64,000 nt of DNA. Source: an uncultured Kangiella sp. GTDB taxonomy: Bacteria; Pseudomonadota; Gammaproteobacteria; Enterobacterales; Kangiellaceae. Location of the stretch: contig CAZRPK010000002.1 of NCBI GenBank assembly GCA_964601915.1, positions 2,000-65,999 on the forward strand. Reading direction: 5' to 3'. A model generated the notes under the pieces. That model was not told the origin of the DNA. It searched no databases and saw only the letters and a list, made by a program, of their open reading frames with translations. A program made the translations under genes and the position numbers. Shown piece after piece: positions 13,723-30,224 of the stretch (position 1 is its first letter; every line of letters begins with the position of its first letter).

Positions 13723-14868
13723 TTATCGCTTGGAAGGCTCCCATAAAGTAACCCTCTTTCCAGAAATATACATTAATGATGAATGGAATATTGCTAGATT
13801 CACTTGAATAAAAAAGTAGCAGATCTTAATTAACGGAGTTTGCCTAGCGCTAGTTGAAAGGTAACCAGTAATTGCCATCCCATAAAAAAGCACTTGAATA
13901 GTAAAACTAAATTTATAAAAGTAGGATAGTTTAAATAATAAAAAATTAGTGACTAAAGTGAGTAAAAGGAACCAAGGTACTAGCCAACGCATTAGTTTGT
14001 GAGAAATAACTTGAAAGGCGAAAAAACCATGTTTGAAAGGGTTCATAATAAAAGCTTGGCTGGAAAGCGCAGCCATGCCCCGAATTACTGTTCTTACTTT
14101 TCGTTGATATTCTTTGGTTTCATCCTTTAGGTTTGGATAAAAACCCAGTAATTTAGAATCTGTTACAGCTATTAACTCGTTATGAATACAATTTAATGCA
14201 GTATTAAAATCACTTGGCACATTGATGTTCCAGTTGTTACAAACTTCACGCCTTGCGGTAAAAAATGAACCGCTTAAGCCAACCAAGCTATTTACACGAC
14301 TTTCTAATTGTCGCAACCACATTTCATATTTAACATATGCTCCTTCACCTGCGACTTCGCCACTTTCTGTCAAAAATCGGTCTTCGCTTGAAATTGCACC
14401 GATCATAGGATCTTCAAAGCGCTTAGCTATTTTTAATAGAGCGGTATTTTCTATTTGTGTAGAAACGTCTGAAAATACAAGTATGTCACCAATAGATATT
14501 TCAATGGCGCTTTTTTGAGCGTTTTCTTTTCCTTTTCTTTCCAATACGGGATGCAGGGTTACACCTCTATTTTTGTAGCCATCAACAATTTCATTCGTTT
14601 TGTCCGAAGAGCCATCGGAGGCAACAATAATTTCAATCTTATCGGATGGGTATTTGACTAGTAGTGTATTCTCTATCTTCTTGGCAATCTGATTCTCCTC
14701 ATTATAAGCCGTGATAATAAAGGATATTGAGGGAAGAGGATGAGTTTTATGACTAACGATATAGATGCATTTTTTTCTTGTTTTTGTAATTAGAACTAAA
14801 ATTAATGGGTAAATGAAATAGCTATAACTAACGCCGAATAATCCAATGAAAAAGAGCACTTCTGTCAC
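13723..14868 (-). CDS. Glycosyltransferase family 2 with C-terminal membrane domain (synthase-like)
   Basis: 'ISFIITAYNEENQI', 'IIVASDGSSDKT', 'VFSDVS' (DxD-like), followed by 3-4 C-terminal TM helices. GTG start with AAGGA 7 nt upstream. Confidence 0.85.
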   Translation of the reverse strand: MTEVLFFIGLFGVSYSYFIYPLILVLITKTRKKCIYIVSHKTHPLPSISFIITAYNEENQIAKKIENTLLVKYPSDKIEIIVASDGSSDKTNEIVDGYKNRGVTLHPVLERKGKENAQKSAIEISIGDILVFSDVSTQIENTALLKIAKRFEDPMIGAISSEDRFLTESGEVAGEGAYVKYEMWLRQLESRVNSLVGLSGSFFTARREVCNNWNINVPSDFNTALNCIHNELIAVTDSKLLGFYPNLKDETKEYQRKVRTVIRGMAALSSQAFIMNPFKHGFFAFQVISHKLMRWLVPWFLLLTLVTNFLLFKLSYFYKFSFTIQVLFYGMAITGYLSTSARQTPLIKICYFFIQVNLAIFHSSLMYISGKRVTLWEPSKR

Positions 14869-15860: not shown

Positions 15861-16820
15861 CTATTTTAATTGGTTAATTAATTTGGCCGCCATACGTTTG
15901 CCAGATTGTTTGATTCTTCTTAACCTCAGATTAACGGGTATGGAAACGGATGCTGTTTCTCTGTCTGTATAACCTAGGGATGTTAATAAATCACCTGCAG
16001 TCCAATAGAGTTCCTGAAGCTGAGCCTTGCTAAAAGATGTTTTCCAATCACCCGCGATACCTTTGCGAAAAAAATTTTCGGGTTCTGGCCGGGACTTGGT
16101 GCCAGATGCGTTGGTTTGTCCAGGGTTGATAAAGGTGTCTCTTTTGTAATCATTTTGTTTTAATTTTTTGAAACGGTGTGCTTGATAAAGCTCATCAACT
16201 TCTGCCTTTGAAATGCTGATATCCAGAAACTCGAATACATTTTTCATTTGGGCTATACCATCGTTTAGTAGGTTTTCATATCGAATTTCTAGGTATTGGT
16301 CGGTTAATGTTTTCGCTTTTTGTGCTGCTTGTAACAAGGTTTTCCATTCATTGGACGCATCTTCGACTGACTGGTGATGCCAAGCTTTACCCCAGCCTTT
16401 CTTTGCAGCCAATATAGAGGCTACAACATCTCTACCGTCTCGAATAAGGTGAATAAACTTAGCTTTGGGAAAGCATCGGTAGATTGTTTCTATATGTTCA
16501 CTGTTATTTGGAGATTTTTCTAAAAAATAGGTTGCTTGTGGCTTTTCTTGAAACACTCTGTCAAAAACATCACTTGCAAACTGCTTTAACAAAAAATAAA
16601 ACTGTTCTTCGTTGAGGTAGGCTGAGATACCATGAAATCTAAGATTATTTGAAGTGGGGTATTGAAGCTCTCGGTTCCATTGTTTTACCATGGAGCTAAA
16701 ATAGTTATTGAAAAGCTGGCTTTCCTGGCCGGTAGCAATTAAGGGATGGCTTCCTAGCATGAGCTGAAGCCAGGTTGTACCACTTCGTCCTGCACCAATA
16801 ATAAAAACGATATTGTCCAT
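15861..16820 (-). CDS. PAPS-dependent sulfotransferase
   Basis: 5'-PSB loop 'IIGAGRSGTTWL' and 3'-PB motif 'IHLIRDGRDVVAS'. ATG at 16820 (MDNIVFIIGAG) is preferred over the upstream ATG at 16856. Confidence 0.85.
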   Translation of the reverse strand: MDNIVFIIGAGRSGTTWLQLMLGSHPLIATGQESQLFNNYFSSMVKQWNRELQYPTSNNLRFHGISAYLNEEQFYFLLKQFASDVFDRVFQEKPQATYFLEKSPNNSEHIETIYRCFPKAKFIHLIRDGRDVVASILAAKKGWGKAWHHQSVEDASNEWKTLLQAAQKAKTLTDQYLEIRYENLLNDGIAQMKNVFEFLDISISKAEVDELYQAHRFKKLKQNDYKRDTFINPGQTNASGTKSRPEPENFFRKGIAGDWKTSFSKAQLQELYWTAGDLLTSLGYTDRETASVSIPVNLRLRRIKQSGKRMAAKLINQLK

Positions 16821-16960
16821 AATTTTAACACTACTAGATTGATAGCGAATAAGCATTATAGTATTAATAACGACATTATTGAAGTAGTATACCTATTAGA
16901 CTTTAATATATAGCCTTGTGACCTATTCAAAGGACAAAACGAAAGAACATCATCTGAATT

Positions 16961-18727
16961 ATGGAAGAAACTAAAACATTGGCGAAAGCCGTCGAAAGAA
17001 AAACCGCTTATTTTCACTCCGGTGAACAGTCTCTGTTTTACTGGATGCATCAACCCAACAAGCAAATATCACTTAGAGCAATCGTTCTACTGTGCCCCCC
17101 CTTGGGGCATGAATATATGGCCTCACATCGGACCTTTAGGCATCTCGCTGACAACCTTGCTTGTCGTGGTTTACTTGCAGTCAGGTTTGACTATGCCAAT
17201 ACGGGTAACTCGTCGGATGTTAATGGAGAGTCGTTAGGTATTTCCAATTTAGTGCAAAATGTTGTCGATCTTTGTCACAAGTTGAAATATTCAAATCCTA
17301 AAGCGGATATTTGTTGTATCGGATTTAGAATGGGGGCTTCTGTTGCTATGTTAGCAGCAGAAAAAACTGAAATTACCAATTTAGTTCTTTGGGAGCCTTG
17401 TATTAAAGGTCGTCGATACGCACGAGAGATCAAAGCCTTGTCCGGTATTTTACAAAATTCAAATTATACTCAAGATACTGTAGAGGCTACGGGTGTTACT
17501 TTGACGGAAAAATTCGAAAAGGAGCTGAATAACCTTGACTTAACTAATTGTGCGCCGAAAGATACCAAGAACCTCCTTTATTTACATCGAGGTGAGAAAA
17601 AACCTAACCTAAATTTTAATGATTCCTTGAAAGACAAAGTAGGGCGAGTAAAAACCGCTAGTTTTGAAGGATTTGATTCAATGGTAACTTATCCCACAGA
17701 AACGATTGTGCCGTTTTCAGCAATTAATGCACAGGTGTCTTTTTTGTTAGATTCCGTATCACAATCGAAATCAACCAACCAGTATATAAGTGTAGTAGAA
17801 AAATTTAAGAATAATAATGAGTTACGGACTGAAAGGTTTGTTGAAAGGGCGGTTCATTTTGGAATTGAGAATCAACTATTTGGGATTCTCAATCGTAGCA
17901 GTAAACACAATGAATATCACGATACTTTAGTGATATTTCTTAACTGTGGCTCGGAGCATCACGTGGGACCACATCGTATCTACACCGATTTTGCTAGGAG
18001 GCTCGCTAATGAAGGAATGAATAGTTTTAGGATTGATATAGAAGGGATAGGTGATAGTTTTACTAATGGTAATAATCGAGATAACTATGCCTACTCGCCT
18101 AGTGCTATTCAAGATGTAACTCATGCGTTACGATATGCTAATAAAGAAGGCTTTGACAAGTTTGTTTTTACGGGTATATGTGCTGGCGCGTACCATTCAT
18201 TTAAAGCTGCTGCAGAATTGGTAGAATACGATATTAAAGGAGCAATATTGGTTAATCCTTTGGTTTTTGACTGGTGCGAAAGTGCTTCAAACTCTCAAAG
18301 CAAAAATATTTTACAGCAAGGGGAAATAATGCGTTACCAGGCATTATTATTTAGTCGACATGCTTGGAGTAAGCTACTCAAAGGTGGAGTTGATCTCCGA
18401 AATTTGGCAAATACATTATTTTCTTTTTTGTCTTTTAGAATTATGAAGTTGGTTAGTCATTTCACAAATCCCGACAATAATATAGTTAATCGAAACCTTG
18501 CTCAGTATTCAACTTTAAATAGACAATTGAACTTCATACTAGCCGAAAATGATCCGGGCTACCAAATTTTGCTGGCCGACGCAAAAAAGACTGCGACTAA
18601 GTATCTTAAACAGGGCCGGTTAAAAATTGAGTTTATTGAAGGGGTTGATCATGGGCTATCAAAGGGCTGGATGAGAGAGAGAGTATTTGAAATATTGCTA
18701 CAAGCCATAAAAAAACAATTTCTGTAG
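16961..18727 (+). CDS. Tandem alpha/beta-hydrolase-fold protein (two domains)
   Basis: Two alpha/beta-hydrolase-like halves with elbow-like motifs 'CIGFRMGASVA' (N-half) and 'FTGICAGAYHS' (C-half). Neither has the canonical G-x-S-x-G serine. Confidence 0.55.
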   Translation: MEETKTLAKAVERKTAYFHSGEQSLFYWMHQPNKQISLRAIVLLCPPLGHEYMASHRTFRHLADNLACRGLLAVRFDYANTGNSSDVNGESLGISNLVQNVVDLCHKLKYSNPKADICCIGFRMGASVAMLAAEKTEITNLVLWEPCIKGRRYAREIKALSGILQNSNYTQDTVEATGVTLTEKFEKELNNLDLTNCAPKDTKNLLYLHRGEKKPNLNFNDSLKDKVGRVKTASFEGFDSMVTYPTETIVPFSAINAQVSFLLDSVSQSKSTNQYISVVEKFKNNNELRTERFVERAVHFGIENQLFGILNRSSKHNEYHDTLVIFLNCGSEHHVGPHRIYTDFARRLANEGMNSFRIDIEGIGDSFTNGNNRDNYAYSPSAIQDVTHALRYANKEGFDKFVFTGICAGAYHSFKAAAELVEYDIKGAILVNPLVFDWCESASNSQSKNILQQGEIMRYQALLFSRHAWSKLLKGGVDLRNLANTLFSFLSFRIMKLVSHFTNPDNNIVNRNLAQYSTLNRQLNFILAENDPGYQILLADAKKTATKYLKQGRLKIEFIEGVDHGLSKGWMRERVFEILLQAIKKQFL

Positions 18728-18764
18728 TTATTGCTCTATACCCGATCCGCCTCAAGTTACATAC

Positions 18765-21616: not shown

Positions 21617-21633
21617 GGAACGATCCAACACTG

Positions 21634-22278
21634 TTAGGAATACCGTGTTTCTATATGGACAACACTATCATTTTCTTCAATTAAAGTTCTAAGCTCATCC
21701 AGTTCATTGTTGTTATTTCTGGAAGCGAGCCGGTAATGTCTGGTATTGGCTGATTTGTCGTGCACATATTGCAACAAAAGTTTACTGCCGCTGAGTTGAG
21801 GTATATCGTTACTACTGGTGACTTCTAAAATATTAAAAGAGTTACCTTCATCAAAAGATAGTGAATAAACATGAAATCCAAAGCGTTTGGCTAATTTTTC
21901 CATTATATAGGACATGAAAATAACAAGATTGATGATCACTGTGAGCATAATGCCGTACTCGATTTTTGCCGCCATACTAATACCAATGGTCACCAAAGCA
22001 AAAAATATAACCAGTTCAAAAGGATTTTTTACCGGGTTTCTAAAACGAACGATTGAAAGTGCACCAATCATACCAAGAGACAGTGCAATATTGCCCGTGA
22101 TAACCTTGGTAATGGTAAAGGTTATCAAGGGGAGCAAAATATAGGACATTGTGTGATGGTAGGTTGAAACCCATTTTTGCTTGACTATTGTCAGCATGAT
22201 TCTTATTGTGAGTCCGGAAAGGGCGGCTAGAACCAGTGAAATAATGATTCCGTTGGTTCCTTGAATTAATTCTGTCAT
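21634..22278 (-). CDS. DUF4956-family membrane protein
   Basis: 4-5 TM helices and the hallmark 'GALSIVRFRNPVKNPFELVIFFALVTIGI'. It lies 2 nt upstream of the CotH ORF. Confidence 0.7.
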   Translation of the reverse strand: MTELIQGTNGIIISLVLAALSGLTIRIMLTIVKQKWVSTYHHTMSYILLPLITFTITKVITGNIALSLGMIGALSIVRFRNPVKNPFELVIFFALVTIGISMAAKIEYGIMLTVIINLVIFMSYIMEKLAKRFGFHVYSLSFDEGNSFNILEVTSSNDIPQLSGSKLLLQYVHDKSANTRHYRLASRNNNNELDELRTLIEENDSVVHIETRYS

Positions 22279-22473
22279 TTTTTTTCCTTATTAATCGATT
22301 AATTTGTATAGCCAAGGTATGTTGCTTCTTGATATTTCGCCACTTTAGTGGTTAACTAAAAGGACTAAAGATCACAACATAACATAATAATTTAATTTTT
22401 TACTAAATAACACACAAACTTAAACTATCGGCCTATATTTTGCCTTAGTTGTTTCAATCCAACTAAAATATTC

Positions 22474-25041
22474 CTAAGCCATTTTTTGTATTTTGAAACG
22501 AATTGTTTCTTCGATATTAACAGCATTCAGGTAACCTTTTGGAGCTTTATTAGTGGAACTATCGACATCAATAACGATTTCTCGCGTTGTATCCGGAAAC
22601 ATATGAAAATAATTGTCTTCTAAATTAGCGTTTTTTATTTCGATATAGATCCCAAAAATAAAGTCCTGTGCCGAAAGAGAAAGAATACATTGATTCTCAT
22701 TGACCCGAATTAATTCTGCCTGCAACGAACCGGTAGAAGCCTGCGTTGGCATATCGGCCTTTGGAAAATAGAAGGATTCACTTATCATTTGTTGTTTTGC
22801 ATTATTTAATTGGACTAACACTGCGTAGTGGGATGGGGGGCCGAAACGATAGCTGTAGCTAAGATCATAAAAATGTTTCAACAATACTTCACTGTTTAAC
22901 TGAAGTTTAGAGCGGGCATCGATATTAATTGGTTTAGACATATTTGCCATTTCAAGGTGGCGTTGATTGATTATCTTGACGGAAATGCTTCCGTTAAAAT
23001 CCTTATCACCTTCATTTATCAGGTGAATGAGCAATCCATTTAAAGATTCATCAGTTAAATGGATGCTGATTGGTTGCCAACTTCGTTTAAGATAGTAGTA
23101 GCATGCTTTTGGGCTGCCTGTACTATCAATAATTCCCCAGCCAGCGCCAGGCCAAAGGTCTTTCATAAACCAGACCAAGCCACCATTACATCGACTCAGG
23201 CTACTTCGCCATTCTGAATAAACCTGAGTCATAATTTCACCGCTAACAAGCTCACTCAATTGGATATACTTTTGAGGATCAAAACATCTTAAATTAACCG
23301 GATCAACGGCAAATAACTGTTGTAAATAATGATCTCTCACATCCTCAAAATCCCAACCGGTGCCACTATCTCTTGGCGTTCTCTGCTTCCATGTTGGATT
23401 GTGGATCGCCGGTAATTGGCCATTTAGAACAGAATTACTGGTTTTTGGCACTGGCACATTTGAAAAACCTAAACATTCAGAAGTAAATCTAACATCGTGT
23501 TTGCGTAATTCACTGACGGGTTGAAGGTATGCACCAACGCCGTAGTAATGTGACAAACCTTGGTTCACTCGAAAAGGTAAATCACCACCAGTTGGCGAGG
23601 AAGATACATAAGGAACAGAGGGTGCTATTGAGTTGCAGATTTCAGCCAATTGTTGGTCATAGAAAGGGATCTCCCAAATCGAACTATCGAAGCCTAGCAT
23701 TGCAACTTGCTGTTGTATTTCACTGTTGCCGCAATAGATGGTAATGCAGGGGTGTTTGTTGAGTCTTCGTAGTTGTTGTTTTATTTCCTTTTCGACGGAT
23801 TGAAGGAATGATGGTTCGTCAAACGGATAATCCATATTAGCAAACATAAAGTCCTGCCAAACCATAATGCCGAGTTGGTCGCAGATCTGGTAAAATTCAT
23901 CTTGTTCGTAAACCATGGTGCCGCCAATTCGGATCATGTTGGCACCAGCGTCTCTCATCAGGCCAAGTGTGCAGGCGAGTTCCTCATAGCTGCTTCTCAG
24001 AGAAAGAATATCGTTGGTGGTCCAACAGGCTCCGCGACAAAAAATTGGTTGTTGATTAACGTTGATCTTAAAATCTTTATCTTGCACGCTAAGTTGTACC
24101 GATTTAAATCCGATTTTTGCTAGTTCGAAACACTGTTCATAATCATCAGTTTTTATGTGTAGTCGAGGTTGATATAAACGCGGCGTACCATGGGTATGCG
24201 GCCACCAAAGCTCGATATCTAAAATAGTTAGTTCATCAGCGGATAGTTGAAATTTATTAGCTTTGAGATCGTCGTTGTTAGTAGAGTTTCTCTCGCTATT
24301 ACAGACATCGAGTGTGTAGTCTAGGCCATTAATTTCTAATCGGGCTTCGAACGACTTAGTACACGCTTCAATTTCACAACTAAAATCAAGAAAACCGACG
24401 TTATTGTCGACAGAGGTGGCTAGTTTGATGTTACTTGGGGCTGCGTTGTCTAATAGATAGATCGGTTTCCAAGGACCGACGGCTGTCACAGGGGGAGTCC
24501 AACCGGGGATCCGACCTAATAAAGTGGTTCGAAACCAGCGCATTGACTGATTGTCGACCAGTTTAGTTTTCCATTTTGGCCGAGGACGTTTGGTATTTAA
24601 TTGTTTACTGAGCGATCTAAAGCACAGGCTTAAAGTATTGGTTCCATTGATTAGTTGAGAGTTGATTTTAATTTCATGACGATGAAACATATTATCACTA
24701 GCTAAAATAAGCTGGTCATTTAGCCAAACATCGGCCAGTGTCGCCAACCCTTCGAAAACCAGTGTTTGGAATGTATGACGAGGCTCCATGGTAAAGTTTT
24801 TTTGAAACCACCAATCAGAATCATCGTAATTGCTCATCGGCGTCCAGCATTCTGGCTGACGATGATTGATTACTTTGGCGACAGTGCAGGGCACACTGGC
24901 CTTGATTGATTGATGGTTATCCAAATTGATTTCAGCGGGGGACTGATAGTGGTCCGGCGTTGATTGAATAATGGACCAGTCATCACCAAGCAAAATCTTA
25001 TGTGAATTCTCGGATTTTATGTTATTGGTGGTGTCATCCAT
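22474..25041 (-). CDS. Glycoside hydrolase family 2 (beta-mannosidase-like), no signal peptide
   Basis: 855 aa. 'NMIRIGGTMVYEQDEFYQICDQLGIMVWQDFMFAN' is the GH2 TIM-barrel block, with a 'NSEIQQ' acid/base region and a 'FTSECLGF' nucleophile region. Confidence 0.85.
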   Translation of the reverse strand: MDDTTNNIKSENSHKILLGDDWSIIQSTPDHYQSPAEINLDNHQSIKASVPCTVAKVINHRQPECWTPMSNYDDSDWWFQKNFTMEPRHTFQTLVFEGLATLADVWLNDQLILASDNMFHRHEIKINSQLINGTNTLSLCFRSLSKQLNTKRPRPKWKTKLVDNQSMRWFRTTLLGRIPGWTPPVTAVGPWKPIYLLDNAAPSNIKLATSVDNNVGFLDFSCEIEACTKSFEARLEINGLDYTLDVCNSERNSTNNDDLKANKFQLSADELTILDIELWWPHTHGTPRLYQPRLHIKTDDYEQCFELAKIGFKSVQLSVQDKDFKINVNQQPIFCRGACWTTNDILSLRSSYEELACTLGLMRDAGANMIRIGGTMVYEQDEFYQICDQLGIMVWQDFMFANMDYPFDEPSFLQSVEKEIKQQLRRLNKHPCITIYCGNSEIQQQVAMLGFDSSIWEIPFYDQQLAEICNSIAPSVPYVSSSPTGGDLPFRVNQGLSHYYGVGAYLQPVSELRKHDVRFTSECLGFSNVPVPKTSNSVLNGQLPAIHNPTWKQRTPRDSGTGWDFEDVRDHYLQQLFAVDPVNLRCFDPQKYIQLSELVSGEIMTQVYSEWRSSLSRCNGGLVWFMKDLWPGAGWGIIDSTGSPKACYYYLKRSWQPISIHLTDESLNGLLIHLINEGDKDFNGSISVKIINQRHLEMANMSKPINIDARSKLQLNSEVLLKHFYDLSYSYRFGPPSHYAVLVQLNNAKQQMISESFYFPKADMPTQASTGSLQAELIRVNENQCILSLSAQDFIFGIYIEIKNANLEDNYFHMFPDTTREIVIDVDSSTNKAPKGYLNAVNIEETIRFKIQKMA

Positions 25042-25098
25042 TTCGTTTTTCCATAAAAATACGATTACGTCAATATTGCGATATATGGTGGGTTTATC

Positions 25099-26073
25099 TT
25101 ACAAATATTTATTCTGCAAAATAGTCCTTGCGTTGTCCCAATTTTTTGCCATTTCGTCAATAGCGGATAATTCTATCGATTTTCCGCGGCTCACCACTCT
25201 AGCCAGCTGAAACTGATAAATCTTAGCGGATTCAGATATTTGCTTATATTCATGGCTGGCCTCAATCAGTCCGGCTTCTCCGTTGTCTGTCAGCCAGTCC
25301 AGATAGACTGCAGCCAGTTCAAAACAAGCACCTAGTTGGCGTAAAGTGGCAAATGAATACTGATGGAACATTTCAATATTTTCACCTTTTAACCATTCCA
25401 GATCGATCTTTAGTTGATTTTTAAATAGCGCAAAAGGGTTCGTTTTGGGTAATCGTGATAACTGGTCTTTTAGTAACAAGATGGATCTTTGCGTTAACTG
25501 CTCGGCATTAATGGATTGCGATTGGTGTAACTTTGCTATTTCTACGTAGGGTTCTAAGTGAGATTCGTCATATTGACCATTGATGCGGAAGACGGCATCG
25601 AAGTCGTCACCTTCCAACTCGTAATAACCTTGTGCATGAAAATAGCCAAGCTTCTTGTTTTGAATATCAATTGAGTTAACTGAAACGGTGCTTTTTACGT
25701 GAGCGATACCATAGGCCGTTCCGGCAGTATCCGGCAGAAACATCGAATCTAGTTCAACCAAAACGGGGCGACCTAGATTATTCTGTTCAGCAATATGAGT
25801 AAGCAGAGGCTTCCAGATGGCTAGTTCCTGTACTTCAATTTGGTACAGAGTATAGAGGTCAGAGAGTTGAAACTTAAAAAAAGTCCACTGATCGCCTTCG
25901 AAATCGATCCCTAAGGTAAACGGCATAGCGGCAACTGGCTCCAGCCCAAGTGCGTGTAATTGTTCTATCCATACGTCAACATAGCAATTGGTTTCAGCCC
26001 AATCGCGCTCTTGTGTATGGATTGCGTGTCGCTGGTAGGTGGCTGGGTCTAATTTAGTTATTGCGGTGTTCAT
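25099..26073 (-). CDS. DUF1839-family protein
   Basis: 'ERDWAETNCYVDVWIEQLHALGLEP...DFEGDQWTFFKF...VELDSMFLPDT' matches my memory of the DUF1839 consensus. The start overlaps the stop of the aa:CP ligase gene (ATGA). Confidence 0.6.
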   Translation of the reverse strand: MNTAITKLDPATYQRHAIHTQERDWAETNCYVDVWIEQLHALGLEPVAAMPFTLGIDFEGDQWTFFKFQLSDLYTLYQIEVQELAIWKPLLTHIAEQNNLGRPVLVELDSMFLPDTAGTAYGIAHVKSTVSVNSIDIQNKKLGYFHAQGYYELEGDDFDAVFRINGQYDESHLEPYVEIAKLHQSQSINAEQLTQRSILLLKDQLSRLPKTNPFALFKNQLKIDLEWLKGENIEMFHQYSFATLRQLGACFELAAVYLDWLTDNGEAGLIEASHEYKQISESAKIYQFQLARVVSRGKSIELSAIDEMAKNWDNARTILQNKYL

Positions 26074-27008
26074 ATCTCAAGTACTTGTTTAACTTCGGTC
26101 GGCCACTGTTCAGGATCAAGACCGTGTTTTTTTAGCAGTGCCAAGGTGATCCGCTCTAAACCAAAGCCAATGCAGGAAGTGTGGGCATTCTTTCCGTCTG
26201 TAGTTTTAATATTGAACTCTTTACCAAAATGGTCCAAATGACAGTTGCTCGATGAAATCGCTGTCAACTTTTCTTTGGTGGCAACAGGGGCGACTAATTC
26301 AAATTTAAGGACTTGTTCTTTTTGAGTCGCAGCCATCACTCGGCCACCGCGTCCAAAGAAAGGGTCGTTGGCAATTATAGCTTCAACATCTAATCCAATG
26401 GAAAGCAACATCTCCTCGCCTTTTTCTAACCAATAGTCACGATGGGCTAGCGCTTGCTCTGGGGTACCGAGTCTAACAAATTCTCGCTGCCGAAAAATTT
26501 GCATTCTGGCCGGGTCAGGAGAGGGTTCATGTCTAAACACAAAAGCCCGCAAGTCAACTAAGCGACCTTCTTCTGGAAGCACCGTGTTGGCAGCTGTGGG
26601 ATATAGTGGATAACAAGCGGCCGGAACCATCATCACTTCGCTTGGAGATAATTCTGTCGTCCAATCTTCACCATCTTCTTTTTTTTGCACCATTTTAAGG
26701 TGATCTCTCTGGTTACCCAAAAAGGAATGCACCGACCCCATCAAGTCTGGCATGGTTTCGATATGGTCGGTTGCTAAATAGGTTTGCCTATTTAGGATAG
26801 GTGGAAATCGCATTACTTCGGGGTTAAGCTCTTTCCCCGCACGAGTAACATAACCTTCAAATGCTTCCACAATACCTTCGAAAACTCCACTGAGCCCATA
26901 TACTCCTTGGACGCCGGAAGGTAGTAAGATACCTTCATTAATTAGTCGCTCTCTATATTCGCCATAGGCCTGATTGATAGAATCGACTAGGTTAGCTGAA
27001 TCACACAT
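26070..27008 (-). CDS. Amino acid--[acyl-carrier-protein] ligase (truncated atypical seryl-tRNA-synthetase homologue)
   Basis: 312 aa with a class II aaRS core only. 'RFPPILNR', 'DWTTELSPSEVMMVPAACYPLYP', motif 2 'FRHEPS', 'NDPFFGR', 'QKEQVLKFEL' and motif 3 'HTSCIGFGLERI' closely parallel the Bradyrhizobium/Agrobacterium aa:CP ligases. There is no tRNA-binding arm. Confidence 0.85.
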   Translation of the reverse strand: MCDSANLVDSINQAYGEYRERLINEGILLPSGVQGVYGLSGVFEGIVEAFEGYVTRAGKELNPEVMRFPPILNRQTYLATDHIETMPDLMGSVHSFLGNQRDHLKMVQKKEDGEDWTTELSPSEVMMVPAACYPLYPTAANTVLPEEGRLVDLRAFVFRHEPSPDPARMQIFRQREFVRLGTPEQALAHRDYWLEKGEEMLLSIGLDVEAIIANDPFFGRGGRVMAATQKEQVLKFELVAPVATKEKLTAISSSNCHLDHFGKEFNIKTTDGKNAHTSCIGFGLERITLALLKKHGLDPEQWPTEVKQVLEI

Positions 27009-27010
27009 AA

Positions 27011-28198
27011 TTAATGATCTTCTTTATGCATTAGTAATAAGGTTGAATTATGTAGCATAATTCGGTCGTTGTTGACCATCAATGCAGCGCCATAGGCATC
27101 ACGTAATTGTCTACCCAAACTGATAGGAGAATCATTTCTATAACTGGCTATACCGCAAATCATCATCGCTTTTCCGACTATTTCAACAATCAGATTAGCG
27201 CTACTCATTTTTAAGTTATTGGTGCGTATTCCAAAACCAAAATTGGTAAAGGCATTTTCATCATCTTCAATTAGCATTTGTGCGTATTCGTCTTCTTGCT
27301 TAGCAATGTTGCTCCGCATTAGTTGGAGGATTGCATCGACTTCTCCCAAGCGAATAGCTGATATTGGGGGAGCGTCCACATTGTTCAGCGCTTGTCGTTT
27401 AATGACTTTACGAGCCTTATTGACCGCGTTTGAGGCAATCCCAGACCAGAGTGAAGCCCAAGTAATATGTGCGAAAGGGTGCATCGATTGACTCAATATA
27501 TCAGCAAAGGGGGTTGGAAGAACTTGCTCTTTGCTTCCACTGCCTTTTACAATAAATCCGGAACTGCAGGTGCCTCTTAGACCAAGGGTATCCCACCCAG
27601 AGATTGGTTCGAGCTCATAGTCGCCTTTATGTAAAAGTACTTGTACCTGATCGCTTTTGGGGGCATCGGAGTTCTTTCTGGCGGTTAAAATTAAATCATC
27701 TGCTTGCAAACCATAGGAAATAACGGGTGCTTTCTTTTCTAACTTAATGGTATTGCCATCTATTTCAACCGCACAAAGGCTTGAACGTAGGTCGCCGCCA
27801 ATACCGATTTCTGTGGTGGCAGATGCAATCAGGCGTTGCTCGTTGCTGAGCTTAATTAAATAGTTTTTAAAATATTCCGAACCTTTGTAGTGATGTAAAA
27901 TACAAGCTACTTGGATCTGGTGCATTGAGTAGATCATCGCGGTTGAGCCGCAATAATGACCTAAAACTTCACAGATCTTCGAGATTTGGTGAATGCCTAG
28001 ACCCATTCCGCCAAGTTCTTTGGGGAGATAAGCACTTAATAATTTAAGCTCTTTAATTGCGTTAAAGCTTTCTACTGGGAATCTTGCTTGTTTGTCGACA
28101 TCATCGGCATTGGGGCCTATGATATCTTTACAAATTACATAAATTTTTTCTAACAGTTCTAAATATTCAGGTGAATTCTTGGACTGTAATGATGGCAT
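27011..28198 (-). CDS. Acyl-CoA dehydrogenase-fold flavoprotein (non-canonical active site)
   Basis: ACAD-like length and blocks ('ASATTEIGIGGDL', 'ISGWDTLGLRGTCS', 'LRDAYGAALMVNNDRI'). ATG at 28198 has GGGAG 10 nt upstream; the ORF-track start at 28270 is a TTG. Confidence 0.75.
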   Translation of the reverse strand: MPSLQSKNSPEYLELLEKIYVICKDIIGPNADDVDKQARFPVESFNAIKELKLLSAYLPKELGGMGLGIHQISKICEVLGHYCGSTAMIYSMHQIQVACILHHYKGSEYFKNYLIKLSNEQRLIASATTEIGIGGDLRSSLCAVEIDGNTIKLEKKAPVISYGLQADDLILTARKNSDAPKSDQVQVLLHKGDYELEPISGWDTLGLRGTCSSGFIVKGSGSKEQVLPTPFADILSQSMHPFAHITWASLWSGIASNAVNKARKVIKRQALNNVDAPPISAIRLGEVDAILQLMRSNIAKQEDEYAQMLIEDDENAFTNFGFGIRTNNLKMSSANLIVEIVGKAMMICGIASYRNDSPISLGRQLRDAYGAALMVNNDRIMLHNSTLLLMHKEDH

Positions 28199-28283
28199 AT
28201 TAGTACTACTCCCTGTTTTTTGTATTTGATTAGAATCGGTACCACGCAAAAATGACGCGTTAGACTCCAATTGAAGTATATGG

Positions 28284-28523
28284 TTATTCTTGCAATTCTT
28301 CTATGGCATCAGCTATGGATTCAATGCTATCAAAAGTCTTCCGACTAAGCATTGAATCGGGGAATTCAATATCAAAATCATCTTCTAAAGCTAACATCAA
28401 TCCCACGGTTGCTAGTGATGTTAAGCCGGCATGATATAAATCACTTGAATCTTCTAACGTATTGACATCGCTGGTTAGTCTTCCGTGGGAAGTCAATATT
28501 TCCCTAATTTTTTTGATATTCAT
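28284..28523 (-). CDS. Acyl/peptidyl carrier protein
   Basis: 79 aa, acidic. 'LYHAGLTSLATVGLMLALE' carries the phosphopantetheine-Ser context (compare GxDSL). It lies immediately upstream of the ACAD and ligase genes. Confidence 0.8.
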   Translation of the reverse strand: MNIKKIREILTSHGRLTSDVNTLEDSSDLYHAGLTSLATVGLMLALEDDFDIEFPDSMLSRKTFDSIESIADAIEELQE

Positions 28524-28632
28524 TAGTTAATAGTGCCGTAAGATTAGATATTTTTAGTATGAGAAAGATTATATATCATATGAGGAACACTCTGAACAAG
28601 CAATTTCGTGACTTTAATTGACAATAAAAAAG

Positions 28633-29742
28633 CTATTGGTATTTTTGCTTACACTTTCTTAGTGAATCTTCGACCTTAAATCGTATTAAGTTTTTTCGTA
28701 ATCGATATGACGGCATTAAATAGTCGTTAGTCGCAAGGCTTTTTTTGTAACTCATATCGCCAACTAACATATCATAACTATTAAGATCTTCAGATGCATA
28801 TAAATTTACCGCCAGTAAATGGCATATTAGGCCGGGTCGAAATACATTTCCGGCTTGATATTGAAATCCGCTTTGATAGAAGTAAACCCGCTTTTTATAG
28901 ATAAAGTTATAAAGACAACCGATAATTTTATTTCCACAGTATATTGTCAAGAGATCAATTTTGTTAGTTACATGATATTTTTTGATTAACCGATCATGGA
29001 ACACTTTGGAAAAACCGCCACAGAACGAACTCGATTGTCCTTTATTTATCCAGCTTTCTTGATGCATCTTTTTTAAATGATAAAAGGTATCCGCGACTTT
29101 TTTAGGGCTGTCGGCTCGCTCGATTTTAATACGACCATTTTTTTCATAAGCTCTTATAGATCGCCTAATCTGGGAACGTTTATTGGAGCTGAGCATAGGC
29201 AGAAGATCACCACCAAGCTGTCTAACTTTTTCTAAATCTACAGCATAGCCTCTATCTTGTTCTTCGATACGATGGTTAAATTGCTGGTTGCTTAATGAAA
29301 AATATTTGCTTTGTCCTTGCTCGATAAACCCTGCAATGAGTTCACTCCATCCATTGGTCCCTTGAAAGACACTTGTAAAGTCACTTTTTATAAATGTTCG
29401 AGTTGCCAAAATACCGTTATATTCAACAGTTATCGAATCTTTGTCTCGGTCGCCTGTTTTATTAAGGTAGGCACGGGTGCAATAAGTTATCTTGTTATCA
29501 AGTCCTCGTTTGAGTCCGATAAAATAACAAAAGACCGTCGATTCTTCCAACGTGGCATAAACGAGCAAAATATTTTGATCATTTGATAAACAATTAAGCC
29601 AGTTTTCCATCCATACCCATGATAAATAGAAGGAGTTATCGGCATTTTTTTCGACTTCTTGCCAAATGTTTTTGGCTAATTCGTAATCATCGAAAGGATT
29701 TATCTGGTGAAATGTTAAATCGGAACGCGACATGTTGCTCAT
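28633..29742 (-). CDS. GNAT-superfamily, FemAB/CelD (BioF2-like, Acetyltransf_6) type transferase
   Basis: 369 aa. 'FYLSWVWMENWL' N-terminus and C-terminal block 'IIGCLYNFIYKKRVYFYQSGFQY...RPGLICHLLAV...YDMLVGDMSYKKSL' are typical of this family. Confidence 0.65.
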   Translation of the reverse strand: MSNMSRSDLTFHQINPFDDYELAKNIWQEVEKNADNSFYLSWVWMENWLNCLSNDQNILLVYATLEESTVFCYFIGLKRGLDNKITYCTRAYLNKTGDRDKDSITVEYNGILATRTFIKSDFTSVFQGTNGWSELIAGFIEQGQSKYFSLSNQQFNHRIEEQDRGYAVDLEKVRQLGGDLLPMLSSNKRSQIRRSIRAYEKNGRIKIERADSPKKVADTFYHLKKMHQESWINKGQSSSFCGGFSKVFHDRLIKKYHVTNKIDLLTIYCGNKIIGCLYNFIYKKRVYFYQSGFQYQAGNVFRPGLICHLLAVNLYASEDLNSYDMLVGDMSYKKSLATNDYLMPSYRLRKNLIRFKVEDSLRKCKQKYQ

Positions 29743-29813
29743 TGATCCCTAACCATTACTAAATTGATTTAACTAACACTATGATCATATATCAGTAACG
29801 GAAAACTTAAAAC

Positions 29814-30224
29814 CTATCTCTCAATAAATTTAGAGGAAATATCTGATAATTCACTTTCTATGCCTAATGAGTTAACGGCTGTAACTGCAAAATAATAAGT
29901 TTGTTCTATGGTTAAGTTCTCTATCACCTTATTCAAAGTCGAGGCTGAACCAATTGTAACAGTTTGTGATAGTTCATTTTCAGAAATTCCATAATAGATT
30001 TTAAAACTGACAAGATCCGTTAATTTACTGTCATCTGTATTTTCTGTAGGAGAAGTCCAAGATAAAATTGCAACGCCATAATCTATATTTTCTGGTGTTT
30101 CTTCAGTGATTAGCGCTTCTATTTTCCCGCCATCACCGCAAGCGGTTAAAAACACGAGCACTAGCAAGATAAATGAAATAGTGACAATTTGAAGGTAGGG
30201 GTTTAAATATCTGTTTATAAACAT
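29814..30224 (-). CDS. Small lipoprotein with a single fibronectin type III-like domain
   Basis: Internal ATG gives 'MFINRYL...LLVLVFLTACGDG' (lipobox). The FN3 domain 'ILSWTSPTENTDDSKLTDLVSFKIYYG...YYFAVTAVNSLGIESELS' is a paralogue of the C-terminus of the next gene. Confidence 0.6.
   Translation of the reverse strand: MFINRYLNPYLQIVTISFILLVLVFLTACGDGGKIEALITEETPENIDYGVAILSWTSPTENTDDSKLTDLVSFKIYYGISENELSQTVTIGSASTLNKVIENLTIEQTYYFAVTAVNSLGIESELSDISSKFIER

What the first reader, a model, noticed from the sequence alone, without database searches (positions are those of the whole stretch)
22474..29742. Carrier-protein aminoacylation operon: FemAB-like transferase, ACP, ACAD-fold enzyme, aaRS-like aa:CP ligase, DUF1839, GH2
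Six minus-strand genes have very short junctions: 13 nt or 85 nt (with the TTG at 28270 or the annotated ATG at 28198 as the ACAD start), 2 nt, a 4-nt overlap, and 57 nt. The 312-aa protein is a tRNA-arm-less homologue of atypical seryl-tRNA synthetase, of the kind shown in Bradyrhizobium and Agrobacterium to load Gly or Ala onto a dedicated carrier protein instead of tRNA. The fate of that aminoacyl-S-carrier protein has remained unknown. Here the ligase/ACP/ACAD/DUF1839 core is preceded by a FemAB/CelD-type GNAT. That family normally takes aminoacyl groups from tRNA or acyl groups from CoA, which suggests an aminoacyl-ACP-dependent transfer onto an acceptor. The core is followed by a cytoplasmic GH2 beta-mannosidase-like enzyme, all inside a surface-glycan region. 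The ligase-ACP-ACAD arrangement also resembles prolyl-S-PCP oxidation modules (PltF/PltL/PltE type). This is the best candidate in the window for an uncharacterised pathway, possibly aminoacyl or modified-aminoacyl decoration of a glycan or lipid.
Basis: partly seen in the sequence, partly recalled or inferred. Interest (0 to 1): 0.8.

Follow-up and report, generated by a model that had tools for sequence, protein, structure and literature searches.

The report
Conserved aminoacyl-carrier-protein pathway cassette
This is a real member of a widespread bacterial gene set, of unknown product, that loads a small amino acid onto a dedicated carrier protein; fold evidence suggests one member then passes the (probably oxidised) group to an amine or sugar-type acceptor.

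Summary
The six minus-strand genes exist as described. The 312-aa protein is a genuine tRNA-domain-less amino acid:[carrier protein] ligase. It scores above the NCBIfam equivalog cutoff, and its Zn ligands Cys132, Glu161 and Cys279 are invariant.

In 80 related loci from eight phyla the conserved unit is ACP–ACAD–ligase–DUF1839–GH2. A sixth gene, a tandem α/β-hydrolase with an invariant Cys nucleophile, usually follows. In this window it lies displaced at 16961-18727.

The GNAT is not core: it is within 10 kb in 5 of 80 loci. It does recur, with a sulfotransferase and a GT2, as an optional accessory set in distant phyla.

The five-gene neighbourhood was already noted in a 2023 paper supplement. 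The pathway's role is still reported as unknown.

New points from this work:
- A confident DUF1839 model matches, over its full length, the carrier-protein-dependent Cys transacylases CcbD and CtaG. This makes DUF1839, rather than the GNAT, the likely off-loading enzyme.
- The ACAD lacks both canonical catalytic glutamates.
- The GH2 keeps its catalytic Glu pair, but residues corresponding to β-mannosidase signature positions are replaced.

The product and the acceptor remain inferred.

The parts
28284..28523 (-). Dedicated acyl carrier protein (79 aa). The phosphopantetheine site is Ser36, in G-L-T-S.
   Evidence: PF00550 and NF005480 equivalog at 111 bits against a cutoff of 72. Ser36 is invariant in 48 of 48 cassette ACPs. 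An ACP is present in 72 of 80 related loci.
27011..28198 (-). ACAD-fold flavoenzyme (395 aa from the ATG; a TTG at 28270 would give 419 aa). It lacks the catalytic glutamate at both the MCAD-type and the IVD-type positions.
   Evidence: Acyl-CoA_dh_N 51 bits. A family profile hits butyryl-CoA dehydrogenase at 93 bits and the nitrososynthase DnmZ at 77 bits. The YEG motif reads MVN, and the IVD-type position is Ser243 next to invariant His244. Present in 78 of 80 loci.
26070..27008 (-). Amino acid:[carrier protein] ligase (312 aa). It is a class II seryl-tRNA-synthetase-like catalytic core with no tRNA-binding domain.
   Evidence: NF005479 at 429 bits against a cutoff of 357, covering profile positions 15-316 of 318. 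Bll0957 structures 3mey and 4h2w at 232 bits. Cys132, Glu161 and Cys279 are invariant in 74 of 74 ligases.
25099..26073 (-). DUF1839 protein (324 aa). Predicted to be a papain-like Cys transacylase that takes the acyl group from the ACP.
   Evidence: PF08893 at 381 bits. AlphaFold2 model with pLDDT 91.3 and pTM 0.90. Foldseek gives full-length matches at probability 1.00 and TM about 0.6 to AziU3/U2, CcbD (including its PCP complex) and CtaG. Cys30 lies at a helix N-terminus and is invariant, as are His19, His125 and His146. Present in 78 of 80 loci.
22474..25041 (-). Cytoplasmic GH2 protein of the β-mannosidase branch (855 aa). The catalytic Glu441 and Glu522 are kept; residues that correspond to signature substrate contacts are changed.
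   Evidence: PDB 5n6u at 233 bits and BtMan2A at 186 bits. Ser440-Glu441 in 59 of 60 and Glu522 in 60 of 60 cassette GH2s. BtMan2A GWDWG aligns to GW(S/T)P, and its NNE to (N)SE. No signal peptide or TM segment. Present in 68 of 80 loci.
16961..18727 (+). Tandem α/β-hydrolase (588 aa), a member of the sixth cassette family. Domain 1 has Arg at the nucleophile elbow (G-x-R-x-G). Domain 2 has an invariant G-x-C407-x-G and His564. It is displaced from the cassette in this window.
   Evidence: 29% identity over 566 aa, E 1e-86, to the gene that follows GH2 in L063. The family is present in 48 to 53 of 80 loci, about 35 times immediately after GH2. Motif conservation. TIGR03101 matches the N-terminal domain and TIGR03100 the C-terminal domain, both below cutoff. 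Model pLDDT 90.4.
28633..29742 (-). Acetyltransf_6-type GNAT (369 aa). It is an optional accessory, not a core member.
   Evidence: PF13480 at 69.6 bits; FemAB_like 15.5 bits against a cutoff of 27. Homologues occur in 5 of 80 loci, directly beside the cassette in L012, L028 and L005. No sequence match in the PDB.
28568..28596 (-). Promoter-like site in the 109-nt gap between the GNAT and ACP genes.
   Evidence: TTCAGA-17-TATAAT, 10 of 12 matches. It is a consensus match only: such matches are not enriched over shuffled sequence.
15861..16856 (-). Sulfotransferase; possible accessory gene.
   Evidence: Sulfotransfer_3 at 140.7 bits. Close homologues lie beside the cassette in L012 and L035, and a distant one between GH2 and the hydrolase in L028.
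13723..14868 (-). Membrane-anchored GT2 glycosyltransferase; possible accessory gene.
   Evidence: Glycos_transf_2. Homologues occur in 14 of 80 loci, some above 300 bits (L035, L066, L012, L022). TM-like segments.

Best explanation
The region holds one copy of a widespread, self-contained thiotemplated cassette: ACP, ACAD-fold flavoenzyme, aa:CP ligase, DUF1839 and GH2, usually followed by a tandem α/β-hydrolase.

Proposed course of events:
1. The ligase uses ATP to put a small amino acid on the phosphopantetheine arm of the dedicated ACP. This activity has been shown for the homologues Bll0957, Bll6282 and Atu2573, with Gly or Ala according to the 2010 work as recalled and as stated in the finding. 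It is inferred here.
2. The ACAD-fold flavoenzyme modifies the tethered aminoacyl group. It has no canonical catalytic glutamate, so this is more likely amine oxidation or N-oxygenation than a standard α,β-dehydrogenation. Inferred.
3. DUF1839 is a papain-like enzyme with the bipartite fold of CcbD, CtaG and BtrH. It picks the acyl group up on Cys30 and passes it, ping-pong fashion, to an amine or hydroxyl of a free acceptor, most plausibly an amino sugar or glycoside. Inferred from fold.
4. The cytoplasmic GH2 is catalytically intact but has an altered −1 subsite. It supplies, trims or releases the glycoside. The Cys-nucleophile hydrolase performs a second thioester-based acyl transfer or editing step. 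Both roles are inferred and are the weakest steps.

In this window and a few distant lineages, an accessory set (GT2, sulfotransferase, Acetyltransf_6 GNAT) suggests that the product is further glycosylated, sulfated or acylated.
For: Ligase and ACP identity:
- NF005479 at 429 bits (cutoff 357) and NF005480 at 111 bits (cutoff 72).
- 232 bits to the Bll0957 structures.
- Zn ligands invariant in 74 of 74 ligases and ACP Ser36 in 48 of 48 ACPs.

Cassette conservation in 80 loci from eight phyla, out of at least 575 species genomes that encode a relative:
- ACAD 78, DUF1839 78, ACP 72, GH2 68, tandem hydrolase 48 to 53.
- Same order and strand, with short or overlapping junctions.
- PGAP-annotated operons in Azospirillum and Rhizobium plasmids have unrelated flanks.

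DUF1839 as transacylase:
- The model has pLDDT 91.3.
- The only full-length structural neighbours are AziU3/U2, CcbD (including its complex with the CcbZ PCP) and CtaG, at probability 1.00 and TM 0.55 to 0.62.
- CcbD makes an amide between a carrier-protein-bound amino acid and an amino sugar through a Cys acyl-enzyme (PMC12945683).
- CtaG, BtrH and AsbE accept carrier-protein-bound donors (PMC12865890).
- Cys30 lies at a helix N-terminus, and Cys30, His125 and His146 are all invariant.

ACAD: Glu is absent at both canonical base positions, and there are full-length matches to the nitrososynthases DnmZ, KijD3 and ORF36. Flavin reductases were found among nearest neighbours twice.

GH2: the Glu441/Glu522 pair is invariant.

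All cassette proteins lack signal peptides and TM segments.

Accessory genes near the cassette elsewhere fit chemistry on sugar amines: GT2, sulfotransferase, GNAT, polysaccharide deacetylase (3), formyltransferase and PPTase.
Against: - No step after ACP loading has experimental support anywhere. The 2022 review says the biological role remains unknown.
- The link from DUF1839 to CcbD and CtaG is at fold level only, with 10-14% identity. A profile search of PDB sequences finds nothing.
- The single best structural hit, AziU3/U2, is not a transacylase.
- The acidic third residue of a catalytic triad was not identified. The 2023 classification proposes a non-canonical C-(T/S)-H site.
- The acceptor is unknown. 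No glycosyltransferase, exporter or amino-sugar gene is conserved with the core, and the neighbours are heterogeneous.
- The roles given to GH2 and the hydrolase are guesses.
- The window's hydrolase lies 3.7 kb away on the other strand, and its closest relative is a second, distal copy in L035. It may therefore be a paralogue tied to the sulfotransferase rather than to the cassette.
- The amino acid specificity of this clade was not determined.
Confidence: 0.45

Rival explanations
1. The FemAB/CelD-type GNAT is the enzyme that takes the aminoacyl group from the ACP and places it on a glycan or lipid acceptor. DUF1839 plays an unknown side role.
For: The GNAT gene lies 109 nt upstream on the same strand. 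Acetyltransf_6 homologues sit directly beside the cassette in Longimicrobiales (L012, L018), Planctomycetia (L028, between GH2 and the hydrolase) and a gammaproteobacterial MAG (L005). That is more than chance would give across phyla.
Against: A GNAT is absent from 75 of 80 loci, although the aminoacyl-ACP must have a fate in all of them. FemAB_like scores 15.5 bits against a cutoff of 27, there are no NCBIfam hits and no PDB relative. A promoter-like site lies between the GNAT and the ACP gene. DUF1839 is universally present and has a carrier-protein transacylase fold.
Confidence: 0.12
2. The cassette makes a free small molecule rather than decorating a sugar. DUF1839 would act as a hydrolase or cyclase: a thioesterase-like release step, or an AziU3/U2-like ring closure after sulfation. 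GH2 would remove a protecting or carrier glycosyl group.
For: AziU3/U2 is the best structural hit (E 4e-8). Sulfotransferases accompany the cassette in L012, L028, L035 and this window. The cassette is self-contained on plasmids with no glycan genes. No exporter or glycosyltransferase is conserved with the core.
Against: An invariant Cys at the papain nucleophile position, together with invariant His residues, fits acyl-enzyme chemistry. The sulfotransferase is present in only 3 or 4 of 80 loci. CcbD and CtaG match nearly as well and over the same full length.
Confidence: 0.2
3. A carrier-protein oxidation module of the prolyl-S-PCP (PltF/PltL/PltE) or aminomalonyl/hydroxymalonyl-ACP (Zma/Fkb) type, feeding a PKS or NRPS assembly line.
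For: The ligase-ACP-ACAD order resembles these modules. Weak NCBIfam hits to PigA (40.8 bits) and RedW-type prolyl-PCP dehydrogenase (31.4 bits), and AnaB at 48 bits with the family profile.
Against: These scores are far below the cutoffs of 500 to 650. Characterised homologues of the ligase load Gly or Ala, not Pro or Ser (2010 work as recalled; not read here). There is no 3-hydroxyacyl dehydrogenase partner. No PKS or NRPS domains appear among the 25 most frequent families in either survey of 237 nearest neighbours. The ACAD lacks a catalytic Glu.
Confidence: 0.03
4. A Dlt/Alm-like envelope aminoacylation system. Gly or Ala would be carried on the ACP to lipid A, teichoic-acid-like polymers or EPS without prior oxidation. 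GH2 and the hydrolase would be remodelling enzymes.
For: The ACP scores weakly on the DltC models (33.7 bits). The window has a flanking glycan cluster. The hydrolase domains are related to the 'exosortase A system-associated' hydrolases 1 and 2.
Against: No membrane-bound acyltransferase of the DltB/MBOAT or AlmG/LpxL type is conserved. All cassette proteins are soluble and cytoplasmic. The universally conserved flavoenzyme is left unexplained.
Confidence: 0.1

Closest known systems
Amino acid:[carrier protein] ligases with their carrier proteins (Bradyrhizobium Bll0957/Bsr0959 and Bll6282, Agrobacterium Atu2573; Mocibob et al. 2010, 2013)
   Same: Same family by curated model and by structure-backed alignment. 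The protein is a truncated atypical-SerRS catalytic core with the Cys/Glu/Cys zinc site and an adjacent dedicated ACP and ACAD gene.
   Different: 39% identity to Bll0957. It belongs to a marine gammaproteobacterial clade near Kangiellaceae. Amino acid specificity was not determined. In this window the sixth gene is displaced, and a GNAT, a sulfotransferase and a GT2 lie nearby.
Conserved DUF1839 neighbourhood described in Ozhelvaci & Steczkiewicz 2023 (JBC; PMC10318531 supplement)
   Same: Same gene set and order: GH2, DUF1839, aa:CP ligase, ACAD, ACP. DUF1839 is classed there as papain-like with a C-(T/S)-H site.
   Different: That work reported the family mainly in α- and β-proteobacteria and high-GC Gram-positives, and suggested fatty-acid or phospholipid protein processing. 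Here the set is found in eight phyla. A sixth conserved gene is added, and DUF1839 is linked by fold to carrier-protein-dependent transacylases.
CcbD/LmbD (lincosamide synthetase condensation enzyme), CtaG (closthioamide), BtrH (butirosin) and AsbE: protease-like thiotemplated ligases
   Same: [quoted passage not shown] The nucleophile Cys sits at a helix N-terminus, and a stand-alone carrier protein acts as donor. CcbD and BtrH acylate sugar amines.
   Different: No detectable sequence similarity (10-14% identity). The donor is loaded by an aaRS-like ligase rather than an ANL adenylating enzyme. The third catalytic residue is unassigned, and the acceptor is unknown.
AziU3/AziU2 (azinomycin aziridine-forming complex)
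   Same: The best Foldseek match to the DUF1839 model (E 4e-8, TM 0.60).
   Different: Described as structurally similar to CtaG but functionally unrelated, forming an aziridine ring (PMC12865890). It is a heteromer. No partner paralogue of DUF1839 is present here.
GH2 β-mannosidases (DtMan 5n6u, BtMan2A 2je8, CapGH2b 9nfe)
   Same: Same multi-domain architecture, with both the acid/base and nucleophile glutamates aligned.
   Different: In BtMan2A the residue before the acid/base is Asn; here it is Ser in 59 of 60 sequences. The BtMan2A WDW segment aligns to W-(S/T)-P. There is a family-specific conserved loop, PRDSGTGWDFEDVRDHY. The protein is cytoplasmic and is encoded in a carrier-protein operon rather than a mannan-utilisation locus.
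Hydrolase 1 and hydrolase 2, exosortase A system-associated (TIGR03100, TIGR03101)
   Same: The two halves of the tandem hydrolase match these two models in the order hydr2 then hydr1. From memory of the TIGRFAMs and Genome Properties descriptions, and not checked here, that pair is encoded in EPS loci beside an ACP and an AMP-forming ligase.
   Different: The scores (70-138 bits) are below the curated cutoffs (203 and 168). Here the two are fused. Domain 1 has Arg at the nucleophile position and domain 2 has Cys. The function of the reference families is itself unknown.
DltABCD and AlmEFG (D-Ala or Gly carried on a small carrier protein to envelope polymers)
   Same: A dedicated carrier protein is charged with Gly or Ala by a stand-alone ATP-dependent enzyme (own knowledge). 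The ACP scores weakly on DltC models.
   Different: The ligase fold differs (class II aaRS against ANL). There is no membrane acyltransferase. This cassette has additional flavoenzyme, papain-like, GH2 and hydrolase components.

Membership tests
Amino acid:[carrier protein] ligase (NF005479) | Whole-protein score above the curated equivalog cutoff | tested here: met
   429.2 bits against a cutoff of 357, covering profile positions 15-316 of 318.
Amino acid:[carrier protein] ligase (NF005479) | Class II catalytic core only, with no N-terminal tRNA-binding domain | tested here: met
   The 312-aa protein aligns end to end with Bll0957 (residues 30-310 to 50-330 of the tagged chain). Only the C-terminal catalytic part of the 520-aa archaeal-type SerRS aligns.
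Amino acid:[carrier protein] ligase (NF005479) | Zinc site of Cys, Glu and Cys | tested here: met
   Cys132, Glu161 and Cys279 are invariant in 74 of 74 family members and align with Bll0957.
Amino acid:[carrier protein] ligase (NF005479) | Aminoacylates the phosphopantetheine arm of a cognate carrier protein and not tRNA | not testable with these tools
   This needs an in vitro assay. The adjacent cognate-type ACP (NF005480, 111 bits against a cutoff of 72) is consistent with it.
Acyl-CoA dehydrogenase family | ACAD fold (N-terminal, middle and C-terminal domains) | tested here: met
   Acyl-CoA_dh_N 51 bits. The family profile gives full-length alignments to many solved ACADs, up to 93 bits.
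Acyl-CoA dehydrogenase family | Catalytic glutamate base (MCAD Glu376-type or IVD Glu254-type) | tested here: not met
   The YEG motif aligns to M-V-N (consensus RDAYGAALMVNNDRI). The IVD-type position is Ser243. The mapping of the positions onto MCAD and IVD is from memory.
Prolyl-PCP dehydrogenase (PltE/RedW/PigA type) | Score at equivalog level on NF045652 or NF053553 | tested here: not met
   31.4 bits against a cutoff of 650, and 40.8 bits against a cutoff of 500.
DUF1839 (PF08893) | Pfam model match | tested here: met
   381 bits, profile positions 2-312 of 313.
CtaG/CcbD/BtrH-like protease-like thiotemplated ligases | Bipartite architecture: N-terminal papain-like domain plus C-terminal helical domain | tested here: met
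   The model (pLDDT 91.3) has an α/β domain at 1-182 and helices at 190-323. Foldseek gives full-length matches to CcbD, CtaG and AziU3/U2 at TM 0.55-0.62.
CtaG/CcbD/BtrH-like protease-like thiotemplated ligases | Cys-His-Asp/Glu catalytic triad | tested here: inconclusive
   Cys30 lies at a helix N-terminus and is invariant, as are His125 and His146. The Cys30-His146 spacing (116) resembles CtaG Cys11-His128 (117). The acidic residue was not assigned, and no model coordinates were available for checking the geometry.
CtaG/CcbD/BtrH-like protease-like thiotemplated ligases | Detectable sequence homology to characterised members | tested here: not met
   A profile search of PDB sequences returns no CcbD, CtaG or AziU hit at E up to 10. 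Pfam returns only DUF1839 at E up to 1.
CtaG/CcbD/BtrH-like protease-like thiotemplated ligases | Accepts a carrier-protein-bound acyl donor | not testable with these tools
   Supported only by invariant co-location with the ACP and ligase genes.
GH2 β-mannosidase subfamily | GH2 multi-domain architecture with acid/base and nucleophile Glu | tested here: met
   Pfam GH2 domains. Glu441 and Glu522 align with the BtMan2A catalytic residues and are invariant.
GH2 β-mannosidase subfamily | Mannose-recognising signature residues (Asn before the acid/base; WDW motif) | tested here: not met
   The motifs are S-E in place of N-E, and GW(S/T)P in place of GWDWG. Both replacements are conserved in 58 or 59 of 60 cassette GH2s. 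That these residues contact mannose is from memory of the BtMan2A literature.
FemAB family (aminoacyl-tRNA-dependent transferases) | Match to FemAB_like (PF04339) above the gathering score | tested here: not met
   15.5 bits against a cutoff of 27. The GNAT does pass Acetyltransf_6 (69.6 bits against a cutoff of 22).
Exosortase A-associated hydrolases 1 and 2 (TIGR03100, TIGR03101) | Score above the curated cutoffs | tested here: not met
   127.6 bits against a cutoff of 168, and 69.7 bits against a cutoff of 203. It is a distant, fused relative only.

The most novel reading that the evidence does not exclude
The six-gene cassette is a complete, previously unrecognised thiotemplated pathway found across at least eight bacterial phyla. 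An aaRS-derived ligase, rather than an NRPS-type adenylating enzyme, feeds glycine or alanine to a carrier protein. An ACAD-fold enzyme without the usual base oxidises or N-oxygenates it. A CcbD/CtaG-like protease-fold ligase (DUF1839) installs it on an amino-sugar-type acceptor, which a re-tooled GH2 and a Cys-dependent tandem hydrolase then process. If so, this answers what aa:CP ligases are for, a question open since 2010, and defines a new class of aminoacyl-derived glycoconjugate.
Probability: 0.3. Interest if true: 0.8.

Novelty: new variant of a known kind. Interest (0 to 1): 0.58.

Why it matters
aa:CP ligases were shown in 2010 to charge carrier proteins, linking ribosomal and non-ribosomal peptide chemistry. 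A 2022 review still states that the biological role is unknown.

This work shows that the conserved partners include a protein with the fold of carrier-protein-dependent amide-forming ligases, an atypical flavoenzyme, an altered GH2 and a Cys-hydrolase. That turns an open question into a short list of in vitro experiments. These can be done in culturable carriers of the cassette, such as Agrobacterium, Bradyrhizobium, Rhizobium, Azospirillum and Pleionea.

The cassette is widespread in soil and aquatic bacteria, so its product could be a common but overlooked metabolite or glycoconjugate. For this window specifically, the gain is modest. It is one more copy of the cassette, in a rarer variant with GNAT, sulfotransferase and GT2 genes nearby.

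Tried and rejected
- Riboswitch or leader search for a clue to the amino acid. Rfam found nothing in 22000-30900, at gathering score or at E up to 1, and nothing upstream of the ACP in seven related loci.
- Source organism. Proteins identical to the window's exist on a 73,730-bp contig, but no record or name could be retrieved. The taxonomy is inferred only from the closest relatives, Kangiellaceae (Pleionea, Aliikangiella).
- Sequence-level link from DUF1839 to solved structures: none. GNAT against PDB sequences: none.
- Fold search with the tandem hydrolase returned only generic single-domain esterases and lipases, with no specific clue.
- GH2–hydrolase fusions suggested by long ORFs in L020 and L024 were rejected. 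The apparent overlaps are upstream ORF extensions in another frame in high-GC DNA.
- The Mocibob 2010 paper could not be read; it is not held. The PEP-CTERM paper (PMC1569441) does not mention the hydrolase/ACP/ligase sub-cluster, so that parallel rests on memory.
- The Plt/Zma-type module reading and the Dlt/Alm-type reading were considered and ranked low (see rival explanations).
- Amino acid specificity from pocket residues was not attempted, because no Atu2573 sequence or coordinates were available.
- The VTC / 749-aa / DUF4956 trio between GH2 and the hydrolase was tested for linkage. It is absent from all 80 loci, so it is treated as an unrelated insertion.

Full report
OBSERVATION

- GNAT 28633-29742
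- ACP 28284-28523
- ACAD 27011-28270 (TTG start) or 27011-28198 (ATG start)
- ligase 26070-27008
- DUF1839 25099-26073
- GH2 22474-25041

The junctions are 13 or 85 nt, 2 nt, a 4-nt overlap and 57 nt, as stated. The GNAT-to-ACP junction was not listed. It is 109 nt and carries a promoter-like TTCAGA-17-TATAAT, although such matches are no more frequent here than in shuffled sequence. The ATG at 28198 is the better ACAD start. It gives 395 aa against a family median of 396 and has a GGGAG upstream.

Pfam and NCBIfam confirm each assignment. [quoted passage not shown] The ACP passes its partner model NF005480 (111 bits against 72). The GNAT passes Acetyltransf_6 (69.6 bits) but not FemAB_like (15.5 bits against 27).

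THE LIGASE

The ligase aligns end to end with the solved Bradyrhizobium Bll0957 structures (232 bits; 39% identity in the eight-sequence alignment). Only the catalytic C-terminal half of archaeal-type SerRS aligns, so there is no tRNA-binding domain. The ACP phosphopantetheine serine (Ser36) is invariant in 48 of 48. The closest relatives are from Kangiellaceae (Pleionea, Aliikangiella) and uncultured marine Gammaproteobacteria.

WHAT IS CONSERVED AROUND IT

A scan of one genome per species found at least 575 genomes encoding a relative. The 80 best loci come from Pseudomonadota, Planctomycetota, Verrucomicrobiota, Gemmatimonadota, Acidobacteriota, Chloroflexota, Myxococcota and Actinomycetota.

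Searching their ORFs with the window's proteins gave the following counts out of 80:
- ACAD 78
- DUF1839 78
- ACP 72
- GH2 68
- GNAT 5

The first four almost always lie in the order ACP-ACAD-ligase-DUF1839-GH2 on one strand. Most absences are contig ends.

Unbiased clustering of all ORFs found a sixth family. It is a protein of about 615 aa made of two α/β-hydrolase domains, present in 48 loci (53 by phmmer). In about 35 loci it starts within a few bases of the GH2 stop, and in about 8 it lies just upstream of the ACP gene.

The window has a full-length member of this family at 16961-18727 on the plus strand (29% identity over 566 aa, E 1e-86). It is separated from GH2 by three unrelated genes: a VTC-domain protein, a 749-aa secreted protein and a DUF4956 protein. 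None of the 80 loci has these three.

PGAP-annotated plasmids show the same operons with unrelated flanks. Azospirillum ramasamyi has ACP, ACAD-family protein, aa:ACP ligase, DUF1839, GH2 and an α/β-fold hydrolase. Rhizobium leguminosarum has the first five. The cassette is therefore self-contained.

WHAT WAS ALREADY KNOWN

The ligase and carrier-protein pair dates from 2010. That paper is not held and could not be read here. [quoted passage not shown] The supplement of a 2023 survey of papain-like proteins already records that DUF1839 genes lie next to GH2, aa:ACP ligase, ACAD and ACP genes. It predicts a papain-like fold with a C-(T/S)-H site (PMC10318531). In Bradyrhizobium, bll0958 next to bll0957 is annotated as an ACAD. 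The neighbourhood is thus known and the function is not.

NEW EVIDENCE ON THE PARTS

(a) DUF1839.
- An AlphaFold2 model built on 53 homologues is confident (pLDDT 91.3, pTM 0.90). It shows an N-terminal α/β domain and a C-terminal helical domain.
- Against the PDB, the only full-length matches are AziU3/U2, CcbD (including CcbD bound to the PCP domain of CcbZ) and CtaG. These have probability 1.00, TM 0.55-0.62 and about 330-355 aligned columns.
- The next tier is just papain-like cores at TM 0.2-0.3.
- CcbD and LmbD form the amide between a carrier-protein-bound (alkyl)proline and an amino-octose by a ping-pong mechanism through a catalytic Cys (PMC12945683).
- CtaG is a papain-like ligase with the same bipartite build. 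Its structural relatives BtrH and AsbE take carrier-protein-bound donors and free acceptors (PMC12865890).
- In DUF1839, Cys30 lies at the N-terminus of a helix and is invariant, as are His19, His125 and His146.
- The Cys30-His146 spacing (116 residues) is close to CtaG Cys11-His128 (117). This is an inference.
- There is no sequence-level link, so the relation is fold-level only.

(b) The ACAD.
- A family profile hits true ACADs best (93 bits). It also aligns full-length to the nitrososynthases DnmZ, KijD3 and ORF36 (62-77 bits).
- The MCAD-type YEG glutamate aligns to Val, and the IVD-type position is Ser243 beside invariant His244.
- A standard α,β-dehydrogenation is therefore doubtful.

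(c) GH2.
- The closest structures are β-mannosidases (DtMan 233 bits, BtMan2A 186 bits).
- The acid/base Glu441 and nucleophile Glu522 are invariant.
- The residue before the acid/base is Ser rather than Asn in 59 of 60 sequences. BtMan2A GWDWG aligns to GW(S/T)P.
- The enzyme is probably active, but probably not on plain β-mannosides.

(d) The tandem hydrolase.
- Domain 1 has G-x-R-x-G, with no nucleophile.
- Domain 2 has an invariant G-x-Cys407-x-G and His564.
- Its halves match the models 'hydrolase 2' and 'hydrolase 1, exosortase A system-associated', both below cutoff.
- The fold search gave only generic esterases.

(e) Location. None of the seven proteins has a signal peptide or TM segment.

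THE GNAT AND OTHER ACCESSORIES

The GNAT is absent from 75 of 80 loci, so it cannot be the general outlet for aminoacyl-ACP. Its few occurrences are still telling:
- In a Planctomycetia MAG (L028) the order is GH2, sulfotransferase, Acetyltransf_6 GNAT, GT2, tandem hydrolase, all on one strand.
- In a Longimicrobiales MAG (L012) a window-like GT2 precedes the ACP, and a GNAT and a sulfotransferase follow the hydrolase.
- L005 has a GNAT right after the hydrolase.
- L035 has the window-like GT2 and the same divergent sulfotransferase/hydrolase pair as the window.

The window carries all three: GT2 13723-14868, sulfotransferase 15861-16856 and GNAT 28633-29742.

Otherwise the nearest neighbours are heterogeneous. 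Sugar-modifying functions recur among the 237 surveyed:
- Bac_transf 7
- Acyl_transf_3 8
- GT2 6
- Sulfotransfer_3 7
- Polysacc_deac_1 3
- ACPS phosphopantetheinyl transferase 4, twice inside the cassette
- flavin reductase 2
- a formyltransferase between two hydrolase copies in Pleionea

MECHANISM

I commit to the following, with an overall confidence of about 0.45.
1. The ligase loads a small amino acid (Gly or Ala type) on the ACP. This is shown for homologues.
2. The base-less ACAD-fold flavoenzyme oxidises or N-oxygenates the tethered group. This is inferred.
3. DUF1839 forms an acyl-Cys30 intermediate and transfers the group to an amine or hydroxyl of a free acceptor, most plausibly an amino sugar or glycoside. 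This is inferred from the fold, from the precedents CcbD and BtrH, and from the accessory genes.
4. GH2 and the Cys-hydrolase supply, trim, edit or release the product. This is the weakest step.

The logic resembles NodF, NodA, NodB and NodH in Nod-factor synthesis (own knowledge).

Rivals, with their confidences:
- the GNAT as the transferase (0.12)
- a free small-molecule product, with DUF1839 as a hydrolase or an AziU-like cyclase (0.2)
- a Dlt/Alm-like envelope aminoacylation (0.1)
- a Plt/Zma-type PKS/NRPS feeder (0.03)

NOVELTY AND VERDICT

The ligase and ACP are known, and the five-gene neighbourhood is in print, so the window holds a new member of a recognised but uncharacterised cassette. 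Measured against characterised systems (Lmb/Ccb, Btr, Cta, Dlt, Alm), it is a new variant. It has an aaRS-type loader, an atypical flavoenzyme, a protease-fold ligase, a re-tooled GH2 and a Cys-hydrolase.

Interest is 0.58. The finding does make a question open since 2010 directly testable. However, it is not unique to this window, and much of the gene context was already noted.

Noticed in passing
window 18765-22278 (minus strand): Three tightly packed genes lie between GH2 and the tandem hydrolase: a VTC-domain protein (206 aa), a 749-aa protein with an N-terminal signal-like segment and no Pfam match, and a 4-TM DUF4956 protein. None has a homologue in any of the 80 related loci, so this looks like an unrelated insertion into the cassette.
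   Followed up: partly
window 29814-30317 and 30839-32098 (minus strand): Two predicted lipoproteins share a nearly identical C-terminal fn3 domain. The larger one also has PKD/Big_9 repeats. Homologues lie upstream of the ACP gene in L003 (Pleionea), L062, L066 and L070, which hints at a recurrent neighbour of the cassette.
   Followed up: partly
window 15861-18727; L035 17838-20649: The divergent pair of a sulfotransferase (minus strand) and a tandem hydrolase (plus strand) is conserved in a Cellvibrionaceae MAG. There it is a second hydrolase copy, distal to the cassette. The window's hydrolase may therefore be this paralogue rather than the copy that normally follows GH2.
   Followed up: partly
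L003 (Pleionea mediterranea) 14407-18940: Two tandem-hydrolase genes flank a Formyl_trans_N gene immediately downstream of GH2. A formyltransferase next to an aminoacyl-carrier pathway suggests that an amine is N-formylated in this lineage.
   Followed up: no
L067 8171-8620, L074 6498-6971; L066 8061-8750, L072 8040-8744: In the more distant clade (Aquabacterium, Steroidobacteraceae) the gene order is rearranged, with ACP and GH2 apart from ACAD-ligase-DUF1839. Extra genes sit inside the cassette: a 4'-phosphopantetheinyl transferase or a small Abhydrolase_2 protein.
   Followed up: partly
window 1-16900: A surface-glycan cluster with a Wzy_C-type polymerase or ligase, three GT4 genes, an ABC exporter, a GT2 and a sulfotransferase. 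Several 280-570-aa ORFs here have no Pfam match (6931-7824, 9582-11300, 11309-12601, 12689-13534).
   Followed up: partly
window 46993-47079 and 47300-47396 (plus strand): A tRNA gene and the small SRP RNA. These are the only Rfam matches at gathering score in the window.
   Followed up: no
GH2 residues 555-572 (window about 23326-23379, minus strand): A strongly conserved, family-specific loop, PRDSGTGWDFEDVRDHY. It has no matching motif in the β-mannosidase alignments. It is a candidate determinant of the unknown substrate or of a protein partner.
   Followed up: no
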